Of a DNA stretch of 64,000 nucleotides, positions 1-22,829 are shown in pieces. Within the stretch, counting starts at the first letter, position 1. Every line of letters starts with the position of its first letter. Made by a program: the position numbers and the translations under genes. Location of the stretch: contig NIVC01001101.1 of the NCBI GenBank assembly GCA_002269645.1, positions 186,001 through 250,000 on the forward strand, read 5' to 3'. The notes below the pieces were generated by a model that saw only the letters and a program-made list of their open reading frames with translations, had not been told where the DNA came from and made no database searches. Origin of the DNA: Macrostomum lignano (Eukaryota).

Positions 1-326
1 CGCTGCGTAGAAATGCGCCGTTCGGCCTCCAGACGGGCTCGTCGTTGTATCTCCGACTCGACTAAACGGCGCTCCGTACCGCGGGCTTTGTCCCTGGCCT
101 GTCGTGAAACTCGCTCAGTCTCTGATTCGCCTGTGCGTCGGGCCGCAGTATCCAGGCGATCGCGTTCCAGACGCGCTTCTCGAGAGCTTTTGCTCTCCGT
201 TTCACGGCGTATACGCGCGCGTTCTTGGTGCTTTTGTAACCGTAGCTCCCTATCTTCTGCAGTTTCTTCCTTCCTACGTTGCTTGGCTTCGCGACTTTTC
301 TAAGCAACGCTCTTACGTTTAGCCAT
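1..326 (-). pseudogene. Helitron RepHel-like N-terminus (E/R-rich ETxExRxxRL repeats) with an in-frame stop
   Basis: Hand translation from ATG 326: MAKRKSVA*KSREAKQRRKEETAEDRELRLQKHQERARIRRETESKSSREARLERDRLDTAARRTGESETERVSRQARDK... The TAG is at 302-300. The repeats resemble the STPR-like coiled coil of Helitron proteins. Confidence 0.5.
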
Positions 327-852
327 GGGACCAAAAAATGCAAGATAGCAGTTCGATTCGATTCGAAATTGACGTAAAAGAATTACGTCAAACGATAAAG
401 TGATATATATATATGTATAGCCAAAGAAACCAAAGAAATCGCGACCGCACCGCGTTTGCGCTTACGACACAAAAGACCATAGACTCTTTAGCAGAAAAGC
501 AGAATAGCAGAATTTAGCAGAATAGCAGAACCATGGATGAATGAATAGAATGGATTGCTATTCTGGCTCTGGCTATTTTCGTTTTTGACTCTTTTGCATC
601 CGGTTCCCCCCCCCCGTGCCTTTTCATTGGTTGATGATTGCCATAGACAATTTTGTTTGTCTCGCTCGTGTTTTGAAATAAAGGGGGAAGATTCGAGAGT
701 CGATTCGTCTACAATTAAATCAGTTCTTTGCGCTTGTGCATCGAAAGAAAGGGGCGAAGGCAGATTTATTTCAAAACACGATAAATCTCAATGTTCATGA
801 GTTCATTGGTTGCTAGGGTCCTCGAATTGGTTGCTAGGGTCCTCGAATTGGT

Positions 853-1125
853 AAAGGCGCGACAAAATCATGAACGTAGACCCCATCAGTCAAGGTGTCC
901 CGTACCACCTGCTCGATGGTCAGCCGCTCGACCTGCAGCAGGGCAGCCTGCTCCTGGAGCAGAGGCGGGAGTCTGTCTGCCATTGTTCGCCTGACCATGG
1001 CGTGGTCCATGGCCAGCGGCGTTCCGCGCAACTGATCCGCAACGGCGTGAAAGTAGCAGTTGCCGTCCCCACTGACAGGAGTAACCTGGGTGCAGGTTAC
1101 ACTGAGCGCGCGACCCGTGACTGAC
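853..1125 (-). pseudogene. OTU-like cysteine protease exon fragment
   Basis: After the acceptor ...aactgcag (1131-1126) it reads SVTGRALSVTCTQVTPVSGDGNCYFHAVADQLRGTPLAMDHAMVRR..., containing the OTU catalytic motif GDGNC-F-AVADQL. It is truncated at 852 by a satellite copy. Confidence 0.7.
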
Positions 1126-1242
1126 CTGCAGTTAACAACGTTTAATACTTTAAATCCAACGTTTAATCCATGTTTAGATTAAGGGGCGAATGCAGATTTA
1201 TTTCAAAACATGATAAATCTCAATGTTCATGAGTTCATTGGT

Positions 1243-1975
1243 TGCTAGGGTCTTCGAATTGGTTGCTAGGGTCTTCGAATTGGTTGCTAAGGTCCTCGAA
1301 TTGGTTGCTAGGGTCTTCGAATTGGTTGCTAGGGTCCTCGGATTGGTTGCTAGGGTCCTCGAATTGGTTGCTAGGATCCTCCAATTGGTTGCTAGGGTCC
1401 TCGAATTGGTTGCTAGGGTCCTCGAATTGGTTGCTAGGGTCCTCGAATTGGTTGCTAGGGTCCTCGAATTGGTTGCTAGGGTCCTCGAATTGGTTGCTAG
1501 GATCCTCGAATTGGTTGCTAAGGTCCTCGAATTGGTTGCTAGGGTCTTCGAATTGGTTGCTAGGGTCCTCGAATTGGTTGCTAGGGTCCTCGGATTGGTT
1601 GCTAGGGTCCTCGAATTGGTTGCTAGGATCCTCCAATTGGTTGCTAGGGTCCTCGGATTGGTTGCTAGGGTCCTCGAATTGGTTGCTAGGGTCCTCGAAT
1701 TGGTTGCTAGGGTCCTCGGATTGGTTGCTAGGGTCCTCGAATTGGTTGCTAGGATCCTCGAATTGGTTGCTAAGGTCCTCGAATTGGTTGCTAGGGTCCT
1801 CGAATTGGTTGCTAGGGTCCTCGAATTGGTTGCTAAGGTCCTCGAATTGGTTGCTAGGGTCCTCGAATTGGTTGCTAGGGTCCTCGAATTGGTTGCTAGG
1901 GTCCTCGAATTGGTTGCTAGGGTCCTCGGATTGGTTGCTAGGGTCCTCGAATCGGTTGCTAGGGTATTTTTGATT
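1243..1975. repeat. 21-bp minisatellite (ttggttgctagggtcctcgaa)n; a short 2-copy array also lies at ~808-852
   Basis: Directly visible tandem array of roughly 35 units. It produces the repetitive ELVARVL, EDPSNQF and GSSNWLL ORFs. Confidence 0.95.
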
Positions 1976-2255
1976 TTGGTTGCTACGGTCTCGTGCTTTG
2001 GTTGCTGGGGTCTCGTTTTTTGTTGCTTTTAACTGCAACTTGCTTTTATGACTGCAACAAGAATGCACTAAGGAGATAGGAAAAATACAGTTTTTCCCAC
2101 ATTGCCAAGCTCCCTGTCAATATTAAGGCGATTTGAAACATGCCAAATTGTCCCAGAAAGATGTGCCATCGAATGGTACAGGTCCCACGGACGGCGGACC
2201 AGCCGTTCGCCCGGAAACGTGACGCGCACAGACAAACTCAACTTTAGGTATATGA

Positions 2256-2773
2256 TTGCTTTTGCTTATTTACAGTAACATATCTTGGTTTTCCCTCTCG
2301 AACATATCGATTGAGTCTTGCTTCGGTGTTTTTCTCGCTCATTTTTAAGTTCAGAATTTCTTCAAACCATTGCCTTGTCTCAAAGACACTTGAGACTGTT
2401 TTGCTGTTCCTAGAGCCTTTTTAACAATATCTTGAATGGCCTTGTTTGATTGCGAAGCTATCTGTTGCTCTTCTTTCATTCTTTTCTTTGCTTCTTTTTC
2501 TCGGCGTTTCTTTTAATTATATTCCAGTTCCTCGCCTGCTTTAGACATGTCACTGTATGATTTCTTCGCATCAAATATGTTTTTCGCTGTGGTAGCTGTT
2601 TTACCTATTGCATCGGCTCCACTCACAATTTTACTCCCATGATTTGATAAAAAGTTTGTGACACCACTGATCATATCACCAATTCCTTCACCCTCTTTAT
2701 CAGCTAGTAGTTGTGAATCAGACGTTTCAATCTGACCCTTTGCTCGTTTGCAGTTTGTTCCATAGGCGCTCAT
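2256..2773 (-). pseudogene. Polinton-like small ORFs: a K/E-rich ORF with GxG motifs and one internal stop, plus a truncated next ORF
   Basis: Reading through the TAA at 2515-2513 gives MSAYG...GEGIGDMISGVTNFL...EELEYN*KKRREKEAKKRMKEEQQ...LRQGNGLKKF* ending at 2351. MSEKNTEARLNRYVREGKPRYV starts at 2342 and is cut at 2256. Packing behind the integrase is tight and AT-rich. Confidence 0.5.
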
Positions 2774-4085
2774 TTTTAGGGGAAAATTTGCTGGTAGAAG
2801 CTGGGATTTGTAAAATGATCAAATAATTTTCTTCTCCATTTTCATCCTCAATAATGTAAGTTATGGGATTTGAGTAAACTATTTTCTTTATCCTAAACAC
2901 TTCTGAAATTTTCCAATAACCTCTTCGGCCCTTTTCAAAGTGCTCCTTGTATCTATAGATATGAACTTTGTCACCTACTTTGAAGTTTGGTTTCTCATTT
3001 GAATACTCGAAGGAAGGCTTTGGTACTCGCTCAGGGTGTTTAGATGCTTCTGAAGGAGTTATCAGAATCTCAGAATGGATTGTGTTGTTGTATTTTTCAA
3101 CAATAGTTGGCAATATGTGGAGCCACTTCTGGTTTCCTTGTAGATCAAATTCAAACCAGAGTTTATTTGTGAGAGTACGATTGAACCTCTCAATCATTGC
3201 ATTCTTAGACTCACCATAAATTGAGAACATCTTGTTAATATACTCCCCATTTTCATCTTTCTTTCTTATGTCGTCTTTTGAAAACGAGTATAGCTTGTAC
3301 ATATGCTGATTATAAAACTCCTTGCCTTCATCTACACAAAGTCTCTCTGATCGTCTTACTGATTCCTTAAATACTTTTTGGAAAGCTTCTGCAACTTCCG
3401 CTCCCGTCTTTGTTTTCAAAGGTACTGCCCAAGCGTAACGTGTAAAACCATCTATGATAGTGAGTGCATATTTGTAACCTCTTTCAGGAGGAAGGATAAT
3501 GATATCTGCATGCCAAATTGTGTCTTTTGCATAGTGAATCATTTTTCTAAATACTCTTGGCTTTCGATATTCTTTATGCAATTTCAAAGCATCTTCATAG
3601 CTAAGACCATTGCCGTATATGGTTAGACAGTCTATACAATTGTTGGGGGTGTGAGTATGAATGCCTAATCCAAACCGAACTTTAGCTTTAATAACACGCT
3701 TTACTAGATTTCTAATCAGTCTCTCTTTCACAGACAAGTCTCTGGTTGGAATAGCATCTAAATCAGCAATCATTTTTTCATCAGCAATATGCTTCTTTGC
3801 TAGGGCTTTCTCTGGAGTTGAAGACGTCTTTTCAGCATCTCTATAGCTTTTGTCATAATAGTAAGCAGTCCAATCGATTGGGTTAATTGGTAGACTATCA
3901 TACCGAGGCCTGTCTGTAATTGGATTGAGTCTTTTGTCTAAATTTGTACCTGGGCCAGTGAAAGAATACCCTGGAATATGAAATTCGCCAGGATATTTTC
4001 CAGTGGAGAAGATTGGCGGTAGTTTTGTTATAGCTGACTGAATATCTAAAGCATTTCCTAGAAATAATGGTTTACTGAAGGCCAT
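2727..4085 (-). mobile_element. Polinton/Maverick (adintovirus-like) integrase with N-terminal parvovirus-type PLA2 domain, decayed
   Basis: PLA2 motif GYSFTGPGTNLDKRL...PINPIDWTAYYYD. DDE core WHADII / VDEGKEF / IERFNRTL. The C-terminal II*SFYKSQL (GSFY-like) lies in another frame near 2830-2800. Confidence 0.9.
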
Positions 4086-4499
4086 TTTATATATATATAA
4101 TTTACTATCGTTAAACTGGATGACACGTTCATATTCTATATACCTGAAATTGCATTGAATTGACGCGTGAATCCAACTTTTCTCATGGTTTTAGAGCTGG
4201 AATCGTGAAAATTGCACTTTTTCAAAATTTTTGAAAATCACAAAAAATCGCTGTTTTCAGACCATTTTCACCTGTTTTTAGTCATTTTTTTACTTATTTT
4301 TACTGATTTTCAAAATGAGTGAGGGCATGAGGGCGAGGGCACCCCCCTTTTTTAAAAGTATAAAAATTCCGGAAAATCTGTGTTCTGTGAAATATTCCAC
4401 AGGCCAATGCCCCCACATGCCCTCACCCTCAACATCCTCACTCACAGATATATGTATATTTATATATTACACACTTGCAACTCTGACCTCCTGGTAGTA

Positions 4500-4590
4500 G
4501 TAGTATGTTATAAGGGGCTGAGTCATCCAGCGAGCTGGCGCGCAATGCGCCCGAGCAATAAGTGTGGCGCAGCCCCTTATGACATACTAC
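4500..4590. repeat. 21-bp inverted repeat (20/21 match) with AGT-repeat ends around a ~49-bp loop
   Basis: gtagtatgttataaggggctg (4500-4520) pairs with cagccccttatgacatactac (4570-4590). Confidence 0.85.
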
Positions 4591-4629: not shown

Positions 4630-5500
4630 TGGGATTTTGATGAGGATTACCGCAAGCTCATGCCTGATTCCACAGGGAGCCAGTGTACTCCCTGTGGAAT
4701 CAGGGAGAGACAAAAAGAGACAAAAATAAATTAAATTATTAGGCCATCACACAGAACAAACAAACACAGAGCAAACAATATTGGCGGGGAGAGAGCCGCA
4801 AACCCACACCAAGCCTAGAAAACTTTGAGCTGTAAACTCGCTCCTCCGCCTGCAAGCTGAGTATTCAGACTTGGTCTATGATGCTTAATGTGCAAGGCTT
4901 CCAGCTCTGAGTTTGCCATTAAATCTACATCTATCCAGAACAGTGAAAATCTCATGCTCACAACAAGCATTACAACTAAGCAATTGGTCATGCACTGCAG
5001 AGTTATTCATTCTATGCTCCCTAGCCGTAGTGTACAGTTGCCTTTTGGTTTTCCTATGTAGGAAATGCTCTGATCACCAGAGCAACAAAATTGATGGATG
5101 ACACCAGCCGACAGGGCTCTAGGGGCCTTCGACTTCAACCTGCTAACAAACTGGCCGATTTTGGCGGTCTGAAACACAACCATGATCCGAGAGTTAAAAT
5201 ACTTCAAGAAAGTTCTTTTAAGCCTCTTTTTTCCAGACAGGACAGGACACCAAGGAAGGAGAGTTTGATCAGCACATCACTGGAATTCGACCTCTTAGCT
5301 TCGTCAGTCAAACCAGACTCAGTCATTTTCTTAGTCAGAAATCTGTTCAGCACTTTACCAACAAATCCCTAGGGAAACCATTACGTTGAAAAATGTCAGT
5401 GAGCTTGACCACTTCTTGGTGGAAAGATTGCCAGGTACTACAGATATTGAACGCTCTGTGCATCATGAAACGGACAAGACCAGCCTTCCATTGACTGAGC
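4630..5500 (-). mobile_element. Penelope-like retroelement 3' fragment (RT thumb + GIY-YIG endonuclease), frameshifted
   Basis: Minus frames give WKAGLVRFMMHRAFNICSTWQSFHQEVVKLTDIFQRNGFP, then GVIHQFCCSGDQSISYIGK/TKRQLYTTAREH, then LHIKHHRPSLNTQL. A perfect 17-bp hairpin (4663-4704) sits in the 3' UTR. Confidence 0.85.
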
Positions 5501-5697
5501 TGCTCGGTATACAGGTTTATAACCTCGAAGATTTGGGAGCACCATCGATTGAAGATTCAGATACTGGCTGTGCAGTGAGAAATTCATTGCTGCACTACGA
5601 GTACAGTTGGCTTAAGCCAAAGTTCTGCATCAACTTAAGAAGCGAGCAGTGTCCGTGGCACAGGGGCAGTAAAGTTGGCAGAAGATTTGGTGAATAA
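5500..5697 (+). pseudogene. C-terminal remnant of an ORF, possibly Polinton-associated, truncated by the Penelope insertion
   Basis: GIQVYNLEDLGAPSIEDSDTGCAVRNSLLHYEYSWLKPKF..., with the stop 13 bp before the TBP-like ATG. The resemblance to the NLEDxGxP...CAxxN tail of Polinton-associated proteins is from memory and unverified. Confidence 0.3.
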
Positions 5698-5710
5698 ATA
5701 AAGGATCGAA

Positions 5711-6292
5711 ATGAGCCCACCTGCAGCTACAGCCCTAACAGTGACCAATCTGGTTGGCGGAGTGGATCTGAGCCTGGGTGGAGACGGGTGCCCAGCTGCC
5801 TCTACGGGAACTGGCTCTCAGCATGGCTCATGTGATCTACCGCCCGTCTGGCCCCGGGTGCTCATCAAGCGGATGCGAAGTCCCAGAGTGACTCTGCTAC
5901 TCTACCCTACTGGGCAACTGAGCATCTGCGGTGCCAAGACCCACGCTGACACCAAAAGGGCTGCCCGTCGCTCCGTGGCTATGCTGCATCGGAGAGTGCC
6001 GGCTCAACTGCTGCCTCATTAAACTATTTGTGTTCGAATTAAAACTAATACTGCTCATGGACGGTTTAAGCTCCAAAATGCGCGACCGCTTACCGAACTT
6101 GTTAAAGTATTGCCCAAAGCCCAGTATGAGCCATAAACATTTTCAGCTTTAGTTTGTCAACTTAAGTATTGTAAATGCTTGCTTCTCCATAATGCCTCTT
6201 ATATTCTTAGTGGGGCGAAATCTCTGCGTATGCTAAAATCCGACAGTTCTTCCCTGTTTCGCTCTGTTAACACACTTATGCAACTAAAATAA
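5711..6292 (+). pseudogene. Intronless minimal TATA-binding-protein-like (TBP fold, two repeats) pseudogene
   Basis: Repeat 1: TVTNLVGGVDL../LPLRELALSMAHVIYRP/..VLIKRMRSPRVTLLLYPTGQLSICGAKTHADTKRAARR, with compensating frameshifts. Repeat 2, same frame after the TAA at 6020: VRIKTNTAHGRF...KAQYEP*TFSALVCQLKYCKCLLLHNASYILSGAKS. It ends at TAA 6290-6292, overlapping AATAAA. Confidence 0.8.
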
Positions 6293-8569
6293 AGCACAAG
6301 AATTATCCGCCTTTAATCGGACTCTGAAAACTCGCTTGAGTCCTGCTCTGCCACTTTGCCTGTTATTTGGTTCCCTTAGCTGCAAGTTGTGTGGTCAAAT
6401 ACATCTCTAATGCTCTAATGCTTAAACTTTTAAGCTATTTTATTCATGCGAGAAACCAATATTGAAATTGATTAAATAGAAACGAAATTCCAACTTATCC
6501 AGTCGCAATGAAGTAAAAAATCGAAGGCATTGCGAAATTCTAGCAGTATATTTTTACTGCAAATTTCTGCATCAAAGTACAGGGAACTGAATTCGTTAAC
6601 TAAAGAATTGCACACTAAGCACACTCCGAAACGTCAACTGATGTTGAACCAACGCATGTTGATCCCACAATTTCTTAGACTTACAATGCTAACAGAGTAA
6701 GCTTTCGAATGTCAAAATATTTGTTTTTTAAAAATGAAAAATTGAAAAGCTCACAATGGAACTAATGTAACAGTGTTTATACCAAAATAAATGGCATATC
6801 CAGCACCAGAAATTGGTGGTAGGACAAGTTGTAGCCGGCTGCTAAGATTGCTTACAGGAACCGACTCTAGGGCAGCAATTGGGTTTGTAGCGTACTTTAA
6901 TACTTTCTCGGAATTTCGTCAGATTTCTAAAAGTCAATACATTATTATTTTTCTAGAAACTTCTTCGAGTTAGCAGCTTATTTAAGGTACGCATTACGAG
7001 CTATAAATAGTAAATAATTAATTGCGACCTAACTTTTTATATTCTACTTGTATTTGCGCAACGTATATAATTAAGTGTTTAATCACTTTGTTAAGATGTG
7101 TTCAATCTTCCTAGAAATTTCCGGAAAGCTTTATAAGTCTACAAATATACGGCGACGGCAGTGACATCAATCACGCCGCCTTATTTTTCTCTCTTCGAAT
7201 CCCCGATCTAATTTGCGTCGATAAAAAACCAAAAGAACCACCGCTTTGCTGTCATTCAATAACCAACAAAGCCGTCAACAGGTTCATTGTCCCAAAACTG
7301 GGGGCAGCATCGGCTTGTCCTTGGATCAGAAATTCCAGGAGGGACTCAGCCATCTCGTTTTCAGGTTGCTGTTTCTGCTGCTGCTCGCTGATGCTCCTTG
7401 CTTTGCTACCTGCCTCTCACAGTGCAGCAGAGTTGCATAAGCGTTTCGCCACCCAGCCAATCACACCTACCCCACGCCCCTTATTTCCATTGGCTATCTC
7501 AGCTGGCTCTTTTACGCCCTCCTATTCTTTTACATTACCGCCTATCTCCGCCGTGCAGGTGCGGCAGAGTTGCATATACTCATACTACCCCCTTTACGAT
7601 TGGCGATCTTAGTCTGGCTGTACATTTATATGCTCTTTGTAAAACATTTCGGTTGTAAAAATGTTTGTGGGAACTAAAAATTTTATTCAGTGCTGCTACA
7701 CCAAAAGTGTTCGCAGACTTTATGAGTTGTTTTTGTTTTCACCCTCCTGAAAACCGGGTTCTGTTGTCTGTACCCAGCCCTAAAATTCCCCAAACTTTCT
7801 CAGACATCTTGTATCAATAATATTCCACAGGGGGTGCTGCTTAGTGCTTGCCTTCCACCTAACCGACCAACCCCACGCTAGGCGCGCTGGGCCTCTCCAA
7901 GTTTTCCAGTTCAACCAACCCCACACTCTGACTTGCACTCCTACCCCCAATTGCCCCGTACGCTCGCTCTCCTATCTCCACACTGTTCGGCAGGGTTGCT
8001 GCTCTCACTTTTCTGCTCTGTATCGGCTGGTTCACTTTCGAGCTGCTTCGATGAGTCAGTCTCAGAGTAGTGGACCTCCGACTCGGAGTAGTTATACGCC
8101 GCCGGCTTTAAGTCTTCCAACTCACTCCAGTCTCCAGCCTCTGCTTCATCAGTTTCACTCCAATCCTCTAATTCTGATTCACTCCAGTCTCTAGAGCTGC
8201 CCCTACTATTGGAACCGCTATAGCTAGATTGAAGCTGCAATGTTTGAGTATTTTTAACAGCAATAGAAGTTTATATTTGGAAAAAATGTTGCTAACATAA
8301 TTTGAAGTTTTTTTTGTATAAAACAATCAGAGGAATTTTTATCCAAAGATAAAAATGATTCCAGTCTTTCATTTCACTTTCTAATTCAACAGTTCTTATT
8401 CAATATAACAAAAGTGATTTTGTCTTTTATATAGCTGGATGAACCATAAGCATCAAATGACACAATAAGCTGTTAAAAGCAATTTGAGGAAGTTATTAGG
8501 GGAAATGGTGAAATCAGGAAGCCAGCTGAACAATTACAAAGAGACAAATTTAATTGAATTTCCTTTAAA

Positions 8570-8940
8570 ATACTTGTTGGCCTCTGTGAGGTGATGGGGC
8601 ACCCATACCGATGTGACACAACGCAGCTCCAGGTCTTCTCTCAAAATTCGATGCACCGTTGACTTGTCAACCTCCAGCCAGTCAGCAAGGGTCCGTACTG
8701 ACACTTTTGGATCGTCTTCAATCAGAACACGCACATCGCTGATAAGCTCTGGTGTTCGAGTTGATCGAGGTCTCCCGGCACCGCTGGCACTCGGGCAGTC
8801 GCCTGCTCCTTTAGTGGGGCTGGTCTTGGCATCAGCGGTGGCTGCCTTGAAATAATTAAATACAGTTGCACGGCATGGAGCTCCACTGCCATACGCGGAA
8901 GACAACTCTTCAAAGCACTGTTGAGCACTGATTCCAAGCT
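8570..8940 (-). mobile_element. mariner transposase N-terminal fragment
   Basis: GRPRS...VLIEDDPKVSVRTLADWLEVDKSTVHRILREDL...WVPHHLT (HTH plus a WVPHEL-like motif). Confidence 0.8.
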
Positions 8941-9164
8941 GCTGCTGCGTCCATGCGTAAAATTTAAAGTTTTATTTGCTTGGCTCCAATCGTTTTTGCA
9001 CTGGCGTTGCAGTAGGCAAAACTGAGCTATAAAAATCTATAGTGATGCGCAAGAGAGGGTGCAGTGATACTTAAATCTCTTGTGCGTCTTCGGTACTGTC
9101 TATGGTAGCATGTGGTGCGCTGACAGCTGTAGCTATTGTTCACTCTTCAAATAGCAGCAGTAAT

Positions 9165-10649: not shown

Positions 10650-11330
10650 GAAGTGCTGTCCCGGAAGGTTTCGCGAAGAAAACATTGGGCTACTGCCCGA
10701 GCCTATACTGGCCCATCATCCGGGTAGCATATTAGCTGGTTTTATGGCGTGGAAACCGCTGGAAAACCGGTACAACCCCCCGTCCAGGTGGTCAAGTTGG
10801 CCAACTCTTTATCTAGAGCAGCGTCATGAACATGGGACCAGCCGGGACTGCTGGGCGGATGCCTGAAACTGGTCCGGACGTTACCGAACGCCGGAGCCAC
10901 CAACACGCTAACTACTCTCTCCGATTACGACCTCCAACCTGCGCAAAATTAATCCCAGTCCTCTTTCTGAAAACCTCCGCGCACCAGACCGAGCCTTCTA
11001 GAACTCTGACCGAGGCCAGCCTCCTAGACTCGAGCGGTACGCCCATCTTCTTAAGCCACTCATCAGTCTTCTTTTCACAACATCCCCTCCAGTTCCAAAC
11101 CAAACCAATCACGCTCTGGGCACCTGGGCCCGCCACCTTCGCGACCTCAGTCGCAAGACCCTCGTCTGAATAATATTTGATTTTATTGTCCCTAGCGAGG
11201 GCCATAGGCCCCGCTCCTCTGTCCGCACAGATCGTAACGTCAGCAATCCAAACCTTCTCCTTATTAAATATTATTAAATCAGGTCGTCTATGCCCCCTAG
11301 GAGTCGCTCTAGGAGTCACTGAACCCAAGA
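10650..11330 (-). mobile_element. R2/NeSL-like non-LTR retrotransposon 3' fragment (restriction-like endonuclease)
   Basis: RRPDLIIF...VWIADVTI...ARDNKIKYY...GLVWNWRG matches the PD-(D/E)xK RLE C-terminus. It is 5'-truncated. The 3' UTR boundary is approximate. Confidence 0.8.
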
Positions 11331-11338
11331 CGCTCTAA

Positions 11339-14300
11339 CTGGCTCGCAATGAACTCTACCATCCTATCGTCCCTCGCCCCTCTCTTATCCCAAGTCCTGT
11401 TGCACTGCTGCAGAATATGCCCCAATCCCACAATTTGCCTGCATCCTGCATCACACAGAGGCGCTTGCCTCCTACCTCTGGACGCACGAGCTGCATTCGG
11501 CCAAACAAAACAAGCTGAACAAGTGGGATGACACCGCTCAGAAGTTCGCCCTCATCGCACACCTCGGCAAGAAGGCCTTCGCACTGTTGGCGGATGCGCT
11601 ATTGCCAGATAAGCCTGACGCCAAGACCTACGCTGATCTGAAAACTCAGCTGATCAAGGAGACGAAAGCAGCGAAATCCGAGATTGCATACCGGTACGCG
11701 TTTCATCACCTCAAGCAGGACGACGGCGAAGACGTTTCTGCCTACGCAAGAAGGCTGCGACTGGGTTCGGAGAACTGCAGCTTTTCAACTGCCGAACTGA
11801 ATGACCGCCTGCGGGACCAATTTATCTTCGGATTGTCGAACAAGGAGATCGTCAGAAAGTTGCTCACGGAGAAACTGAAAGATCTGACGTGGGAAAAAGT
11901 AACTACGGTGGCAAATGCATGCGAGGCCGTAAGTCGCGGCGAGAGACAGATCTCAGGAGGCGAAATTCTACATGTCAAGACAGATCCTCCTTCGACATCG
12001 AAAGCCCAGAAACCAGCGTACCAGAAAAGCGACCAGAAGAACGGCCAATTGCGCCAAGTCAAGTGCTTCTGCTGCGTCAAGGAAGGACATACAAAGGGCC
12101 AGTGCCACCACCGGACTAAGACATGCCTTCAGTGTGGTAAGGTTGGTCATCTCAAAGCAGTTTGCAGGTGCGGACTGAACAAAGGTGGACAACGGCCTTC
12201 AACGAGCAACAAATGGTCACAAGGAGGCGGACGGCATCCAAGGAGCAGAGTCAGAGCAATCGACGATGCAGCTGATCAAGTCGGGCACATTTTCTCGATG
12301 ATGACGCCGGAAGATGATCGTGGAAGCAGAAGGATAACGCGACATGTAGTAGTCAATGGTACGAAAATCAAGATGCTACTGGACACCGGGTCGTGCTCAA
12401 CGTTCGTGTCAAGCTCGGTGTTTCAAAGCCTACTCGAACCAGCAAATGTAAGGCCCACAAGCAGACGATTCGCTGCGTATCAAGGGGATCCAGTGCTAGT
12501 GAAAGGCGAAGCTATTGTGAACGCCAAGCTAAACGCCAAGCCAAGTTCCGACCTGACTCTGTTTGTGGTGGACAACCCAAAAGCCGAATCTATCTATGGC
12601 CTAGATTGGACTGCTGCCCTTGAGCCAGACCTCTACACTTTTATTACAAAATGTACGGTGCCTGAGGAAGACGGCTCGAATCCTACAACGGCGTGCTCTG
12701 TAAACAGATTTTCCGTATCATTGGCCATTGAGGCGGGAGCAAAGCTTATCTTTTTTAAACCTCGGCATATTCCATACGGGATTCAGGACGATGTCAAGGC
12801 CGAGTTGAAGAGAATGGAAGAGGCTGGACAGCTCCAGAAGGTGGAATCCAGCGAGTGGGCTACACCCATTGTCTGTGTTCGAAAGCAGTCTGAAAGGTTC
12901 GGATTTGTGGTGACTACAAGGTTACCCTCAACCCACTGCTGAAAGACATGGTGTCAACAACGCCCACAATTGACGAAGTTCTGTCAAAGCTAGGCCGTGC
13001 CCACCGATTCTCTACGCTGGACCTATCAAATGCGTACCTCCAAGTACCGGTGGATGAAGACAGCAGCGTGATGCTGACGTGGAGCACTCCGTTCGGCTTA
13101 TACAGGCCCACTGCATTGGCATATGGAGTAAAGCAAGCACCAGCAATTTTTCAGTCATTCATGGACAGGTTGCTTCTAAACATAGAAGGTGTCATTTCCT
13201 ACCAAGATGACATTCTTGTGTGGGGTTTCAACCAACAGAGTCATGACAACAGACTGTCCAATTTTAAAGGAGAGTGGACTGAGCATTAACGAGGAGAAAT
13301 GCACTTTCAACAAGCCATCTATCATGTTCCTGGGATATGAGATCAGTGAAAACGGCATTCGTCCACCACCAAAGAAAGCCAAGGAGATTTCAGGATTAGA
13401 AGAGCCAAAGAATCTCAAGCAGCTGCAGTCATTTATCGGGATGGTCGATTTCTACGGACGGTGTATCAAGAATCTCGCGAGCCTGAAAGAACCTCTAACG
13501 AAACTGACCAGGTCAGGAACGAAGTGGGCATGGGGCCCAATCGAGCAGAGAGCCTTTCAGAGCATCAAGGACGAACTAAACAATGCAGTCGCTCTCAAGC
13601 CTTTTGATCCATCAGATAAGATCGTTCTCACTACTGACGCGTCACCATCGGGACTTGGTGCAGTCCTCGAGCAGTCGTCCGGGCCCGTAATATTCATTTC
13701 AAAGACTCTGACTCAATCAGAGCGCAACTATGCTCAAATTGAACGCGAAGCCCTCGCCATTGTATGGGCTGTGAAGCGCTTACACAAGTATTTGCTGGGA
13801 CACAAGTTCGTCATTCGCACAGACCACCAACCGTTAACGTTCATCTTTGATCCTGGCAGATCCTTGTCAACTGTTGCCGCAGCGAGAGTGCAACGCTGGG
13901 CAATCACTTTAATGAGCTACGAATACGCCATTGAGTGCAAGAGATCTACTGAGATTCCCGTGGCCGATGCCCTGTCAAGACTGCAGAACAGCACATCTGA
14001 AGGGGAGCAGTTTGACATTAGCTCAGTGCAGGACTGCCTACTAGATTTTCCAATCAACAAGGAGCGTTTGAGAAGACAATCGAAAGAGGATTCAGAGCTC
14101 CGGAAGTTATTTGCTCAAGTCAAGTTTGGCTGGAATGCAGGACTTCGAGGACTACAACAGTTTAGCCGATTCAGGGACGAGTTAGTCATTGAGAATGGAT
14201 TGCTGTACAGAGGTATTCGGCTGGTTGTACCAAAGCAGGAGCGTTCTGCAACTTTGCGATTGCTGCACGAAGGACACATCGGACCAGAAAAGATGAAATC

Positions 14301-15300
14301 CATAGCTAGACAATGCGTCTGGTGGCCTGAAGTAGATCGAGACATCGAAAAGTATGCGAAAGGATGTAGTTCGTGCCAGGAAAACAAGGATCATGGGGCC
14401 ACCCGACAATGGACTTCGCGGCCGGATGAGACCGAATGCTGGTCAAGAGTTCACATGGACTACGCAGGGCCTATGAAGGGAGGAAACTACATGTTGGTAC
14501 TGATTGATGCGTTCAGTAAATGGGCTGAAGTTCACGTGACTAAGGGAACCACTTCATCTGAGACAATCAAGCGACTGCGAAGAACGTTCGCCCAAGAAGG
14601 CGGGCCCGTGACTATTGTTTCCGACAATGGACCTCAATTTGTATCGAAAGAAATGCAAGGTTGGTTAAAAGGAATCAACTGCCGACATGTTCTCACACCA
14701 CCGTATCATCCAAGGTCAAATGGACTGGCCGAGCGCTTTGTGAGAGATTTAAAAAATCACGTCCGAGCCGCTGAAGAAGATGACCTTCAGAGTTGCGTCG
14801 ACCGGTTTCTGCTTCAATACCGGAACGCGAAACATTCTACGACCGGAAAATCGCCCTCTGAGCTGATGAGAGGTCACCTACTTCGCACCCCTGCATTTTC
14901 TCTGGCACGTGAGCCAGTCTGGGTGAAAACCTACAACAACGAGATGACAAAGTGGAAGTCTGGCGAAGTGGTGGCAACAGAGGGAAAGGTTGTGGTCGAC
15001 GTTGAGCTGGAGGACGGAAGGCGTGGACGCTACTACCGTGAACAGACAAAGCCAAGGAGTTCCGGTTCCGATGACCTGGTGGAGATGGAGACTGAAGAAC
15101 ATGTGCACACGGATCAAGAGTCTGGTCTTCGGAGAAGTAATTGCCATCGGCAAGTACCAAGGCGACTTGAGTGCCGCATGCTTGGTGTACCTACCTAGCT
15201 GTTAACTAATGGGAAGGAGTGTTAGCACTGTAATGAACTTTTATTTATTAGAGAATGCACTTTGCTTAGTAGCCGTCAACGGCTGAGAATTCTATTGATG
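11339..15300 (+). mobile_element. Ty3/Gypsy LTR retrotransposon, decayed, 5' LTR not found
   Basis: PBS-like actggctcgca at ~11339, gag-pol, polypurine tract gggaaggag (15211-15219) and TGTTA LTR start at 15220. The right boundary is approximate. Confidence 0.9.
11417..15198 (+). pseudogene. Gypsy gag-pol with frameshifts (~11420, ~12890, ~13260)
   Basis: Two CCHC knuckles (CFCCVKEGHTKGQC, CLQCGKVGHLKAVC), protease LLDTGS, RT YQDDILV, RNase H TDAS, and integrase HHCC plus MDYAGP / SDNG / NGLAERFV. Confidence 0.92.
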
Positions 15301-16259
15301 TCTATGGACATTTGTACAGTTCAATTCGGTGGCTTAAAGAGTTGCCAAAATATAATTGAAAAGACCAAGTGTCTGCAGAGTTAAGCTAAAGGCTTAGACT
15401 CGATCAATTTTCTTACTCGTCCCAAAAAAAACGAACAGGGAATTTTTAATAGCTAATAGGAAATGCTGAAATCGGAGAGATGCGCTTTAATAGGGAATTA
15501 GATAAGGGCAGGGCGCCTAAACAGACAGTGCATCTGGATGAGGAGTTGGCAGATCGCCAGGTTAATCAGAGATCTGGGGGGAGGGAGGCAACACGCCTGT
15601 CCAACTGATAAAGGAAAAATGGGGTTAGAATTATTACTCGGGAAGAGACTGTACGTTCTCTGGGGAAGAGGGAGAAAGGCTGTACGCTTATAGCTGAACA
15701 AATGCCTTCTAGGGAAGAGAGGAGAGGCGACTGTACGCTTAAAGCTGAACAGGACCTCTTGGGGAAGGGGAAAGGCGGGCGCCTTCAAAGGAATGACACA
15801 AAGACTGGTCTATTTTTAGAACAACTGTTCATTCTGGCCGAAAGGCAAAGCCTAATGCAAAGAGGCGGCCACAGAAGTTGGGCTTCTACCAGTCTATTTC
15901 GCTCTTATTTATACTCAATTTGACAATAATGGCGGACATTGTTAAACAAAATATATAAGGTTTTTTGTATAAAATATATAAAGCGCGCTTTTTAAGGCAT
16001 AATATAATATTTCAGGCGATTCTAATAAGCAAAAAGAGAGAATTGATTCGATGACAAGAAGATATATGAATTTTATGACGAGTTTAACGAATAATATGGC
16101 TACAGCATACAATCATATAAGGTAACATTTATTACTATAACACATAGTAAATGAATTCTTAGGAGGCTCACCCATTGTTCATTCTCAGGGTGTTCGGGCC
16201 ATTGCCGCACCTCCTGCAATGTAAAATTCCAGGTTACGTCCTGTCGATTTGCGTTTCCC

Positions 16260-16527
16260 AATGTAGAGATAGGGCTCATATCTCCGCAGTGCTTAGCCGT
16301 CCCCAATGTAGAGATAGGGCTCATATCTCCGCAGTGCTTAGCCGTCCCAATGTAGAGATAGGGCTCATATCTCCGCAGTGCTCAGCCGTCCCCAATGCAG
16401 AGATAGGGCTCACATCTCTGTAGTGCTCAGCCGTCTTCAATCTATCCATAGAGATGGGTCTCACATCTCCGCAGTGCTCAGACATCCCCAATGCAAAGAG
16501 ATAGGGCTCATATCTCCGTAGTGTATT
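16260..16527. repeat. ~45-bp minisatellite (tgtagagatagggctcatatctccgcagtgcttagccgtccccaa), ~6 diverging units
   Basis: Directly visible tandem array. Confidence 0.9.
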
Positions 16528-17707
16528 TTTCCTTCATTTGCATTGCCGCCTATCTCGCCAGTGCTAGTGCGGCAGTACCATAATTCGCCCTACTACTGTC
16601 ACAAAAATTGACCTTCTGGCCGTTTTTGGCGTTTACCTTGATACCGTTTTTGCCAAGCCAGTATTGGAGGATTCGTATGTATTTTTGGAGGTGTGTAGAA
16701 GCAATTTCGTTGTTTAGTGAATAAGAGCAAGGCGGTGGTTTGTTTAGGTTTTTTTAACAAAAATTAGATCAGTATAAGAGTTAGAAATCTGAAGTTTTTA
16801 TACTACGCCATAAGATAGGTAGGAAAGTATGAAATGCCCAGGTGCAATGAAGGGCGAGGCAGAAAAGCACAATGTAACGCCCCAGATAGCCTTTAAAAGG
16901 GCAAACAGAAGCAGCATTAAGATAATTAATCAACTGTCAAGTCAAATTTGAATGACCGAATCTAATAAAGCCCCTTTCCATTCCAGTGAGTAGCAACACC
17001 CCGCCTCAGGCACAATGGCGCTCAAACCGGCCGGGAGAAGCAAACCGAGGAGAGGCCCGGTTGAGACAGCAATGACGTCAAAAAGAGCAATCGGCCCGTG
17101 GCACGCGTCAGAACCTGGCGAACTTTGGAGGAGAAACGCACGGCCCGCCCACGGACTTCTATTCAACCTGAAGCTGCACAAGAGGGCGAGATCAACCCCA
17201 AGTAGCTTGACAACTGAGAGAGAGAGAGAGAAAGGACTGCATCAACCATATCAACCATGGACAGAGTTAAGAGAAGGAAAATTAAGCTCTTTGTCTTTGT
17301 AATCCTTCTATCTCAAAATTTACCTAACTCAACGCATAGATTTGCAAAACTCCCAAATAATCTCTAACCCACACACTTAGCAACTTACTAGAACTAACTA
17401 AATTCGTGTACAACTAGGAGAATGAGTCTCAGATTTTTTATTGCTGAAAACCCCCGCCGTTGCTAACCACGCGAAGACACTTCACCGGCGGCGGGGAGGT
17501 CAAAAATGCCAATCTGTATAAAATAGACGCCCATCTCAAACCGGAGCGGTGCTACTTTCTCGCGCGGTTTCAGATCTTAACCCACTCTATTTGTGTTGGT
17601 CTCATGGATTATCCAGTTGGCTCAAATCTAAGTCTTGAAATCAATTATTTGCCTTAAAAGTTTACGCAGAGCGAATTAATATTCGTGTGATTCAATTCAG
17701 CCTAGAT

Positions 17708-20409: not shown

Positions 20410-22010
20410 TCAGTCAGAGTGTACTTGACGCTCCGGATCCAGCTGCCAAGTAATGAAAAGGACGCCTCTGCCTTTGATCTGCACCAACTTGAACTCTGTC
20501 TCACCATCAGCGGTCAAAGTGTATCGGGGTTTCTTAGACAATGGTGGTAATATTGCCAGAGCCGATATGCTACGGACCAGATTGAAGTCAGCCGAGGTTG
20601 GCTGGCTACCGGTAATCGTATAAACCCTATCAATTGTTTTGTCTTCACTGATCAGTAAATTGTTCCATATGTCATCTCTAAATGACCTGCAGCAAACAAG
20701 CTTTTCTGTGATAGTACAGATGGTGAACACATCGCAGCGGTCAGACAATGTTAACATTCGATCTCGAACTGCCATGCGAGTGTCTTTCTTAATAAGCTCG
20801 CAATCATGAGGCACTGGAAAAGTCATTTGAATCTGATTAGAATCTTTGTTGAGCCCCAAAATTGTTAGATCATCACTCTGCTCTTTAATCAGGGTGAACA
20901 ACTTGTCACAGTTTCCAGCGATGCAGTACAGCTTCTTAGCACTTTCGTGCAACTCGGTGATGCAGATTCCTGACTTGTGAGCTCCGCTGAGGTCGGTCAC
21001 TGTCACCGCTTGCTCCTGAGCGATGAACAGCAGCTGTCGCTCATTGTCGCAGTGGAGATCTCGGATTGGCTGATCGGCCTCCCAGCTGCAGGCCAGGCGA
21101 CCCACAATGTCCGCATCAGGAGACAGGAGCAGAATTTTGGATTCAGGAAAGTTTTTGACGCCTCTAGTATCGGCTTCGCTATCCGAGCTCTCCGAGGCAA
21201 CCTGAACCTCAACAGCTACAAAATGCTCGGCTGAGGCAGTCGGCTGGGATCTGTACAATGCTCGGCAGACTTCTTAACGATATCCAAGTCATGTATGACG
21301 AACCCAGCGGTGTTGTTGCACACAGTAAGACACGTGGCTTTCTCGCTTTCTTGAAGCTTTGCTTCTTTTCTGCTTTCCTTTGCTTTCAGCTGAATTTTAT
21401 TGCATCGGACAGAGTCCGAAACGTCGATCTGTTCAACATACTTTTTTAACATTGTCAGCTCGGATTTTACGGCATTTTGCAGCTCCCTTACTGACGAGTT
21501 CAAATCTGGATAAGCGACAAGCTCGACTTCCCCTTCATCCTCATCCATTCTCACCAGCTTCGAGTCCAACTGAAGCGTCCTTAGCGATGCCTCCAAGCTC
21601 CTGTTGACGAGGAAGACCTGCCTCATATTGTTGTTATTCTTTGCTTGCTTTAACTCTCTCTCAGAGTCTCCCAGCTCCGAGACACTTGATAGAGAGACCA
21701 TTAGCTCGTCATGCTGTTTAGTAACGACAGCACAGAGCTCACTTTGGCACCGGTCCAATGTCTCTCTGAGTTCGGCGAATGAGTCATCAAGAAGCTGCAG
21801 GTCAGACGTGAGTCTCTGCTGCATCAGTCTCATTGACGCTCGATATGCCTTGAAGTGATGTATCCTCTCAGCGACTGAGGCTTCCAACGCGTCTAATTCA
21901 GCAAAATCGTTTTGCAGGTGCGAGACGCAGAGAGGCTGGCAGGGGATTGGAGAATCGCTTGTAGCAGCACTGCGGCAGAGTCGCACGGAACAGCGACAAG
22001 GTGACTCCAT
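20410..22010 (-). CDS. Zn-finger / coiled-coil / beta-rich (TRIM/NHL-like) protein, paralog 1, split in two frames near 21240
   Basis: ORFs 21216-22019 (ATG at 22010) and 20410-21258 are collinear with the 549-aa ORF at 23983-25632. Shared motifs include CxVRLCR...QPLCxxH and DQPIRDLHCD...QLLFIAQ. Confidence 0.7.
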
Positions 22011-22829
22011 AGCTTGCAATTGGTTTTAATTTCGAGGCAGTTACAGGTAGCTCGTCTTCATTTCTGTAAGGAGTTTATTAAGTCTAAGACTCGTACGGTC
22101 ATTTTAAAGTGTACTGCGCTGTACGTTCACAATGCGAATTAAAGCTGATGAAGGCTTCATTTGTGCTTTTTACGAGCGCTCGTAGTAGTAGGGTTCTAAT
22201 TTCCTGCACTAGAGGGCCAAAATTGCAGGCTATTCATGCAAAACTTAATTGTACTTAGAGAATGCTCTGTAGGATAGAAAAGCTGAAATATCAGGCCAAA
22301 CCTTACAAATACTGCTGTAGAGGCTGCGTCAGAACATTTTGTGGGCCGTTTTGATGCAGTTGGTGCAGATATGATGCTAGAGATGCAAATTGATAACTGA
22401 AAAGCATAAGAATAGCGGGTCATAGCTGGGTTGCAGACAGTCTAAGTAGTATGCTAGTAGAAGGACGGTTTTTTATTGTTCTAACTAAATATGAACAATT
22501 AATGGCTAAAAGTGAAATTTTATTGATTTTTCTGTCCAGAAGACACAAACAAAGTTTTTTTGACTGATCAAACTTACTGACACTTGGTTTTTACCAGGGC
22601 AAAAAAACAAAAGCACCAAAAAATTACAACTCATCGTTTTTCTCATTTGTTCTTTGTAATAAATTAAACCTCGTATGCTTTGATCTTTCAATTAAAACAA
22701 TACACTCGGAAAAGCATCGCAATGCCGCCGATAGTCTAGCAATGAAAGTGATAGCGATGCATAATAATAGGCGATGGTTTGTCCTGATAGAAACGATTCG
22801 TTGTCTTTAGTGATCACTATTATCCCCCT

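What the first reader, a model, noticed from the sequence alone, without database searches (positions are those of the whole stretch)
5711..6292. Minimal intronless TBP-like gene in a Polinton-like neighbourhood: candidate virus/transposon-encoded transcription factor
Seen: a ~193-codon frame with both TBP repeats and almost no N-terminal extension (repeat 1 RSPRVTLLLYPTGQLSICGAK; repeat 2 YEP*TFSALV...ILSGAKS). It is hidden from the ORF track by two nonsense codons and a compensated frameshift, and lies 1.6 kb from the PLA2-integrase. Known: TBP genes are carried by some large DNA viruses, while host TBP/TRF proteins are highly conserved, unlike this divergent sequence. Inferred: a mid-size endogenous dsDNA element carries its own TBP-like factor, possibly to direct its promoters or compete with host TBP. 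I do not know of this being characterised in flatworm Polintons.
Basis: partly seen in the sequence, partly recalled or inferred. Interest (0 to 1): 0.8.

Follow-up and report, generated by a model that had tools for sequence, protein, structure and literature searches.

The report
Flatworm Polintons carry their own TBP
The window holds a broken copy of a TATA-binding-protein gene that two families of virus-like Polinton transposons in this flatworm carry intact, and the protein likely switches on the element's particle-building genes by reading a TATA-variant motif that stands in front of them.

Summary
The TBP-like frame is real but dead here: two stops, two frameshifts, inside a 2-kb Polinton remnant. 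The genome (Macrostomum lignano by named hits) holds 94 open full-length matches of family A and 17 of family B (about 38% identical), in TIR/TSD-bounded Polintons. The gene is under purifying selection, folds as TBP and does not group with host TBP. A sister lineage lies beside Polinton genes in 13 of 13 metagenome loci. All Polinton-linked copies share changes on the DNA-reading face; the TFIIB stirrup is kept in both families. A motif, YWTAAGAA, stands before most genes of the integrase-capsid-ATPase-TBP array, whereas the terminal PC4-like gene has a canonical TATA box. Best reading (0.6, inferred): an element-encoded late-promoter factor using host polymerase II. Binding and start sites are untested, and the motif was found post hoc. 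Ten literature searches found only a figure-legend mention of TBP in a MELD virus. This scan reported the same pattern in three other genomes (unchecked AI notes).

The parts
5711..6292 (+). TBP-like pseudogene (family A); stops at 6020 and 6134, frameshifts near 5784 and 5842
5634..5641 (+). YWTAAGAA motif (CTTAAGAA), 77 nt before the TBP ATG; candidate promoter
   Evidence: same position in open copies
5492..5710 (+). 3' part of the conserved upstream gene (no Pfam family; exonuclease-like by a recalled motif); left edge of the family A remnant
6315..6579 (+). piece from the far side of the polymerase gene, joined after an internal deletion of about 4.9 kb that removed pPolB
7390..7591 (.). 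outer end of a family A terminal inverted repeat; right edge of the remnant
2727..4190 (-). PLA2-integrase of a SEPARATE Polinton, not part of the TBP element
3961..4590 (.). terminal inverted repeat of the PLA2-integrase Polinton; its partner lies 14.0-14.6 kb upstream of the window

Best explanation
The window frame is a decayed copy of a TBP-like gene that Polinton families A and B carry intact, and the intact protein likely acts as the element's own promoter-specificity factor for its particle-building genes. Shown: linkage to Polinton core genes, purifying selection, predicted TBP fold, shared N159-to-T and V161-to-T/S changes (yeast numbering, recalled) on the DNA face, the two kept stirrup glutamates, and two promoter classes in the element. 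Inferred cascade: host TBP would read the canonical TATA boxes of the terminal genes (PC4-like, ORF1); the element's TBP would then bind YWTAAGAA, recruit host TFIIB and RNA polymerase II through its kept C-terminal stirrup, and drive integrase, capsid, ATPase and, in family A, its own gene. The window copy itself makes no full-length protein.
For: 94 of 150 scored matches are open over nearly the whole query (counted by hand); 17 full-length open family B matches. 65 of 72 loci examined have pPolB, ATPase, protease, capsid or integrase nearby; 70 of 72 have the same upstream gene. TIRs with AGT ends and exact 6-bp TSDs in 5 of 11 A and 3 of 6 B stretches. dN/dS about 0.07-0.27 between A sublineages. 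AF2 pLDDT 96; Foldseek TM 0.78-0.84 to TBPs. 13 of 13 metagenome loci of a sister lineage sit beside integrase, capsid, ATPase or pPolB, two of them by weak hits. Polinton-linked rows form one side of a branch, 97/84. YWTAAGAA on the sense strand: 7 and 8 hits against 0.4-1.4 expected, 0 antisense, 6 of 7 and 8 of 8 within 150 nt of an ATG in two A elements; 6 and 5 hits against 0.5 and 0.3 in two B elements; 39-47 nt before integrase in 6 of 7 A copies, in four intergenic sequence types only 50-57% alignable; not enriched in the TBP-less PLA2-type Polinton (1-2 hits, 2.4-2.6 expected). Canonical TATA and no YWTAAGAA before PC4-like in 8 of 8 and before ORF1 in 3 of 4.
Against: No binding or start-site data. 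The motif was picked by eye from the same upstream regions, so the p-values are not corrected for that choice, and the A elements are related. The 8-mer is not enriched in the seven metagenome contigs tested; only the shorter TAAGA is, clearly in 1 of 7 (L151, 11 of 20 upstream, p 4e-5), borderline in 2. The only TBP-less control is one Polinton type. Protease and the gene upstream of the exonuclease-like gene lack the motif within 150 nt. One of four intercalating phenylalanines aligns with P or L in A and B, so DNA binding may be weak or lost; family B lacks the basic helix-2 residues. The one family B pair compared gives dN/dS 0.83 and 0.38 on few changes. The fold was predicted from an alignment rich in cellular TBPs. 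Long branches could pull the Polinton rows together.
Confidence: 0.6

Rival explanations
1. The protein is a real element-encoded TBP but works as a decoy or general supplement: it binds host TFIIB, TFIIA, NC2 or Mot1, or ordinary TATA boxes, and the motif is read by host TBP as a weak TATA variant.
For: Stirrup glutamates and, in family A, the basic helix 2 are kept while DNA-face residues changed. Solved structures exist of wild-type TBP on T(-30) and G(-26) TATA variants (titles). Several motif copies read TATAAGAA, close to canonical.
Against: The same DNA-face changes are held across all 12 Polinton-linked rows rather than drifting. The element keeps two distinct promoter classes, which a decoy does not explain.
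Confidence: 0.2
2. The motif is read by something else, such as the RNA polymerase of a helper large DNA virus (TAAG late promoters of baculoviruses, recalled; virophage precedent) or an RNA-processing machinery, and the TBP-like protein has another job such as binding the termini or steering integration.
For: The core TAAG matches the recalled baculovirus late motif. Promoter motifs shared with helper viruses are a theme of the virophage and PLV papers listed (listing and abstracts only). Motif-to-ATG distance varies from 12 to 149 nt.
Against: No helper virus is known to me for this host and none was sought. The conserved flanks (YW before, AA after) make an 8-bp TATA-length site. The motif is absent from the TBP-less Polinton in the same genome.
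Confidence: 0.14
3. A processed pseudogene or retrocopy of host TBP or TRF2 that landed among transposons.
For: The window copy is broken and intronless. The test against grouping with TRF2 is only marginal (p-AU 0.049).
Against: 22-28% identity to host TBP; grouping with host TBP rejected, p-AU 0.000125; over 100 open copies at a fixed position in Polintons under purifying selection.
Confidence: 0.02
4. The TBP-like gene is cargo of the PLA2-integrase Polinton next to it.
For: 1.5 kb apart in the window and in C620.
Against: Outside that element's TIR; absent from three other copies of it as far as fetched; sister locus C859 has the TBP fragment without the element.
Confidence: 0.02

Closest known systems
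Cellular TBP and paralogues TRF2/TRF3 (Pfam PF00352)
   Same: Two-repeat saddle, N69, V71, F190, F207, E186, E188 (yeast numbering, recalled) kept; TM about 0.83 to solved TBPs.
   Different: About 25% identity; no N-terminal extension; F99 aligns with P or L, F116 is Y, N159 is T, V161 is T/S; multi-copy and mobile; outside the host TBP and TRF2 clades.
Beta/gamma-herpesvirus TATT-binding proteins (EBV BcRF1, KSHV ORF24, CMV UL87; mechanism recalled)
   Same: Closest functional analogue: a virus-encoded TBP-like factor that reads a TATA variant in late promoters and uses host polymerase II. A member annotated U58 appears as a weak fold match (rank 42, TM 0.39).
   Different: Those are proteins of about 750-1000 aa in a six-subunit complex; this is a bare 190-aa TBP core closer to cellular TBP, in a 10-17 kb element. 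No sign of common descent.
TBPs of Nucleocytoviricota and Mirusviricota
   Same: Virus-encoded TBP homologues (fold matches; 59% of mirusvirus genomes, PMC10132985, passages read).
   Different: Those viruses encode their own RNA polymerase; these Polintons show none. The three NCLDV-like TBPs in my tree do not join the Polinton branch and keep N159.
Polintons/Mavericks/adintoviruses (Starrett et al. 2021, PMC8502044; sections 3.1, 3.2, 3.4 and the held supplement searched)
   Same: TIRs, 6-bp TSD, pPolB, rve integrase, ATPase, adenain-type protease, capsid genes. The Fig. [quoted passage not shown]
   Different: That mention sits in the section on non-animal datasets, is not discussed in the text, and no function or promoter motif is given; the figure itself could not be seen.

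Membership tests
TBP family (PF00352) | Two TBP repeats over the Pfam cut-off | tested here: met
   48.4 bits window, 74.8 and 87 bits open A copies, 70.2 bits B
TBP family (PF00352) | Saddle fold | tested here: met
   pLDDT 96, TM 0.78-0.84 to solved TBPs; alignment included cellular TBPs
Canonical TBP | Four intercalating phenylalanines | tested here: not met
   C-terminal pair kept; N-terminal pair aligns with P/L and Y in families A and B; feature as described in PMC10005294
Canonical TBP | Symmetric Asn/Val pair on the DNA face (N69/V71, N159/V161; recalled) | tested here: not met
   N69 kept; N159 is T and V161 is T/S in 12 of 12 Polinton-linked rows
Canonical TBP | C-terminal stirrup glutamates that bind TFIIB | tested here: met
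   E186 and E188 kept in all 6 A/B-type rows and 4 of 6 metagenome rows; role from PMC10005294 passages
Canonical TBP | Binds TATA DNA and nucleates a preinitiation complex | not testable with these tools
   needs binding and transcription assays
Retrocopy of host TBP or TRF2 | Nests with the host gene | tested here: not met
   p-AU 0.000125 with TBP; 0.049 with TRF2, marginal
Polinton/Maverick (carrier) | TIRs with AGT ends and 6-bp TSD | tested here: met
   exact in 5 of 11 A and 3 of 6 B stretches, one more B at 5 of 6 bases; window keeps one TIR end
Polinton/Maverick (carrier) | pPolB and rve integrase | tested here: met
   PF03175, PF00665 with chromodomain; in B, pPolB in 1 of 6 wide stretches; both absent from the window remnant
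Polinton/Maverick (carrier) | Packaging ATPase, protease, double jelly-roll capsid | tested here: inconclusive
   adenain PF00770 met; ATPase 33-35% identical to a Pox_A32 hit; the capsid genes of A and B hit no Pfam family and are named from gene order and recall
Herpesvirus TATT-binding protein family | Large multidomain protein in a six-subunit viral initiation complex (recalled) | tested here: not met
   190-aa bare core; fold match weak
NCLDV/mirusvirus TBP system | Viral RNA polymerase encoded with it | tested here: not met
   no such ORF between the TIRs

The most novel reading that the evidence does not exclude
A widespread lineage of animal Polintons encodes an altered-specificity TBP that, with a PC4-like gene, forms a minimal early-to-late switch: host TBP reads canonical TATA boxes at the termini and the element's TBP redirects host polymerase II to YWTAAGAA promoters of the virion and integrase genes. 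It would be the smallest known viral late-transcription system, a convergent counterpart of herpesvirus TATT-binding proteins, and a natural orthogonal TBP-promoter pair.
Probability: 0.5. Interest if true: 0.85.

Novelty: new variant of a known kind. Interest (0 to 1): 0.72.

Why it matters
How Polintons time their gene expression, and whether animal Polintons still make particles, are open questions. A dedicated TBP with its own promoter class makes both testable in a laboratory flatworm that has RNAi and many recent insertions. It would also give a natural TBP with changed DNA specificity for studying TATA recognition. Practically, more than 100 TBP-domain copies in this genome are mobile-element genes, not host paralogues; some are already annotated as host 'TATA-box-binding protein' or merged into host gene models.

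Tried and rejected
PLA2-integrase as carrier: rejected. 'Intronless' as an argument: host TBP and TRF2 cores are single open frames too. IMG/VR: no relative of the A/B profile (27 pattern matches, 0 confirmed); the sister-lineage profiles brought only giant-virus-like and archaeal-virus-like contigs (14 and 1 loci; ORFs read for 10). First metagenome scan with the A/B profile: 42 matches, 0 confirmed. So genomic context for P0003-5, P0010 and P0015 is unknown. Sequencing runs: no holder is on record as RNA. A third, decayed Polinton type (three sister loci) showed no TBP but is truncated, so it is no control. The upstream gene: no Pfam family and a fold model too poor to search (pLDDT 36.9). 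Atlas look-alikes were TBP clusters only, recognition 2279, under the 2300 mark. No complex prediction was run: TBP-TFIIB needs DNA, is a textbook pair, and the host TFIIB core is split over exons. The primary TBP-TATA variant paper was not held, so residue-to-base assignments are recalled. Papers searched for TBP/TATA/PC4 with no relevant passage: PMC11161782, PMC10748475, 10.64898/2026.06.19.733378, PMC11662393, PMC12220804 (find passages only).

Full report
Observation. Window 5711-6289(+) reads as one 193-codon frame with stops at 6020 and 6134. With X at the stops it matches Pfam TBP in two stretches (48.4 bits, cut-off 22.9) and 35 solved TBP sequences. Two frameshifts, near 5784 and 5842, cancel out. 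Two sister loci exist (C620, C859), in line with three copies each of host TBP and TRF2. The stop at 6134 is in all three, the stop at 6020 and the shift near 5784 in two, and the shift near 5842 only in the window. The decay is therefore real, though the last shift may be an assembly error. A 99% identical database protein is named Macrostomum lignano.

The neighbourhood is two elements. DNA identity to TBP-bearing copies covers only 5492-6318, 6315-6579 and a TIR end at 7390-7591; about 4.9 kb including the polymerase is deleted at the 6315 junction. The PLA2-integrase belongs to another Polinton with a PF21738 capsid and 632-bp TIRs at 3961-4590 and 14.0-14.6 kb upstream of the window. Three other copies of it showed no TBP as far as fetched. 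C859 keeps the TBP fragment without that element. Of 150 listed PLA2-integrase hits (788 candidates), 2 lie within 5 kb of a listed TBP hit and one at 8.5 kb.

The family. The genome search gave 324 candidates and scored 150; 94 are open from residue 10 or less to 179 or more (hand count). A second lineage, B, about 38% identical, has 17 full-length open matches. Counts include the genome's own duplicated segments. Of 72 loci examined (those fetched, biased to top hits, 24 with only 1.5-kb flanks), 65 have pPolB, ATPase, protease, capsid or integrase nearby; the 7 others are the window, its two sisters, two decayed loci and two with short flanks. Family A elements span 16.5-17.4 kb (one deleted copy 12.1 kb); B elements with paired TIRs span 9.6-11 kb. 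Exact 6-bp TSDs flank AGT ends in 5 of 11 A and 3 of 6 B stretches. Both share the same-strand array integrase, minor and major capsid, protease, ATPase, two conserved unknown genes, TBP, plus a PC4-like gene (26.8 bits in A, 23 in B, cut-off 25). Capsid labels are from gene order and recall, not Pfam. In B, 1 of 6 wide stretches has a full pPolB; four TIR-bounded copies lack it but keep TBP.

Selection and fold. Between A sublineages dN/dS is about 0.11-0.21 in the first repeat (pairs with dS over 0.3) and 0.07-0.27 in the second where dS can be computed; the one B pair gives 0.83 and 0.38 on few changes. AF2 on an 82-row alignment gives pLDDT 96. Foldseek ranks cellular TBPs first (TM 0.78-0.84) and giant-virus TBPs lower (0.74 or less).

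Origin and spread. In a 43-row tree A and B join (99/93) apart from host TBP and TRF2. Grouping with host TBP is rejected (p-AU 0.000125), with TRF2 only marginally (0.049). Their neighbours are short unnamed TBPs; a profile found about 30 such clusters on contigs under 18 kb. A metagenome scan returned 13 loci of this lineage, and all 13 lie beside Polinton integrase, capsid, ATPase or pPolB, two by weak hits; 4 of 5 neighbouring ORFs tested hit PC4. The loci are not independent; several are near relatives. With six of them added, all 12 Polinton-linked rows form one side of a branch (97/84) and all have T at N159 and T/S at V161, against N and V in the named cellular rows. The shared characters make long-branch pull less likely but do not exclude it.

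Residues (yeast numbering, recalled). In A and B, F190, F207, N69, V71, E186 and E188 are kept; F116 is Y and F99 aligns with P or L. A review (PMC10005294, passages) states that four phenylalanines kink the TATA box, that TRF2 lost TATA binding with them, and that the C-terminal stirrup glutamates bind TFIIB. So TFIIB recruitment is plausible and DNA recognition is probably altered, or possibly weakened.

Promoter motif. Reading upstream regions showed YWTAAGAA. In the array of two A elements it occurs 7 and 8 times on the sense strand, never antisense, against 0.4-1.4 expected; 6 of 7 and 8 of 8 hits lie 9-150 nt before an ATG (p 2e-4, 3e-6). Two B elements have 6 and 5 hits against 0.5 and 0.3, 4 upstream in each. 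Where it overlaps a gene end it uses rare TTA-AGA codons (4 of 21 Leu-Arg pairs, 0.41 expected). It stands 39-47 nt before integrase in 6 of 7 A copies, in four intergenic types 50-57% alignable. PC4-like (8 of 8) and ORF1 (3 of 4) instead have canonical TATA boxes, as does family B TBP. The TBP-less PLA2-type element shows no enrichment. Against: the motif is post hoc, the A elements are related, there is one control type, and in seven metagenome contigs the 8-mer is not enriched and TAAGA clearly so in one.

Expression. Four runs from four studies, flagged as guessed RNA, cover a host exon with loose ends at both borders and leave the flank almost empty, as spliced RNA would. Their contigs cover a family A TBP frame fully or nearly so in three runs and partly in one. 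They also cover non-coding parts, contigs give no strand or level, and 25 or more near-identical copies could show through DNA carry-over. This is weak support only.

Mechanism. Best reading (0.6): host TBP starts the terminal genes at canonical TATA boxes; the element's TBP binds YWTAAGAA, recruits host TFIIB and polymerase II and drives the integrase-virion array. Linkage, selection, fold, residues and the two motif classes are shown; binding, recruitment and timing are inferred. Rivals: decoy or supplement (0.2), motif read by a helper virus or RNA machinery (0.14), retrocopy or PLA2-element cargo (0.02 each).

Prior knowledge. Viral TBPs are known from giant viruses and mirusviruses (PMC10132985, passages); herpesvirus TATT-binding proteins are the recalled functional analogue. 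Ten searches found one link to Polinton-like elements: the Fig. 5 legend of PMC8502044 and its preprint, in the section on non-animal datasets, without discussion. Its one held supplement had no hit; its figures and gene maps, bioRxiv supplements, Repbase and most subscription papers could not be seen and may hold an earlier annotation. This scan noted TBP-carrying Polintons in three other genomes, two with a shared TATA-like motif; I saw those notes after finding the motif and do not count them as support. Verdict: the window copy is a dead remnant of a real, widespread Polinton gene; new variant of a known kind; interest 0.72.

Noticed in passing
L020, L002, L017, L018 around TBP codon 100-115: A sublineages are about 97% identical upstream of and through the first TBP repeat, about 80% in the second, and 50-60% beyond the stop: a recombination crossover inside the TBP gene swaps polymerase modules onto a shared virion module.
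   Followed up: partly
L002:1751-2665(-); L015, L016; P0009: The upstream gene's frame stays open about 110 codons into TBP in another frame, and several copies fuse it to the later part of TBP by a frameshift in the same zone as the window's. Recurrent error or a real fusion form is unresolved.
   Followed up: partly
G000 C738, C255, C460, C1131 versus C1978: Family B copies with intact TIRs and TSDs lack pPolB but keep TBP, PC4-like and most virion genes: mobile deletion derivatives of a polymerase-bearing form.
   Followed up: partly
L046:6788-7549(-); L098:733-1425(-); L145, L150, L152, L153: PC4-like genes accompany TBP in both families and in metagenome Polintons, some with two PC4 domains; a literature search for Polinton plus PC4 found nothing relevant.
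   Followed up: partly
window 1-4590 and 14.6 kb upstream (L031, L032): A 19-kb PLA2-integrase Polinton with OTU, PF21738 capsid and F5/8-type domain, interrupted by insertions; 788 candidate hits suggest a very large family.
   Followed up: partly
P0007, P0008: Database gene models that join half of the Polinton TBP to unrelated exons; mis-prediction or exonisation not checked.
   Followed up: no
window 8534-8971(-), 10912-11334(-), 11353-15198(+): Mariner-like transposase fragment (HTH hits), a non-LTR endonuclease-like end and a Gypsy-like gag-pol (by motifs, recalled) follow the remnant.
   Followed up: no
window 16257-16597: A TIR-like piece of another family A sublineage (87% to C530 and C100 termini), apart from the TBP remnant.
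   Followed up: no
window 35987-45412: Five copies of a 1.5-kb unit with repeated minus-strand ORFs of 250-290 aa; not identified.
   Followed up: no
window 20410-22025(-) and 23983-25647(-): Two paralogous coiled-coil plus beta-repeat ORFs; not identified.
   Followed up: no
P0021, P0032, P0061, P0120, P0084, P0091: Further short unnamed TBP lineages near the Polinton branch; P0084 and P0091 share the N159-to-T change; genomic context not obtained.
   Followed up: partly
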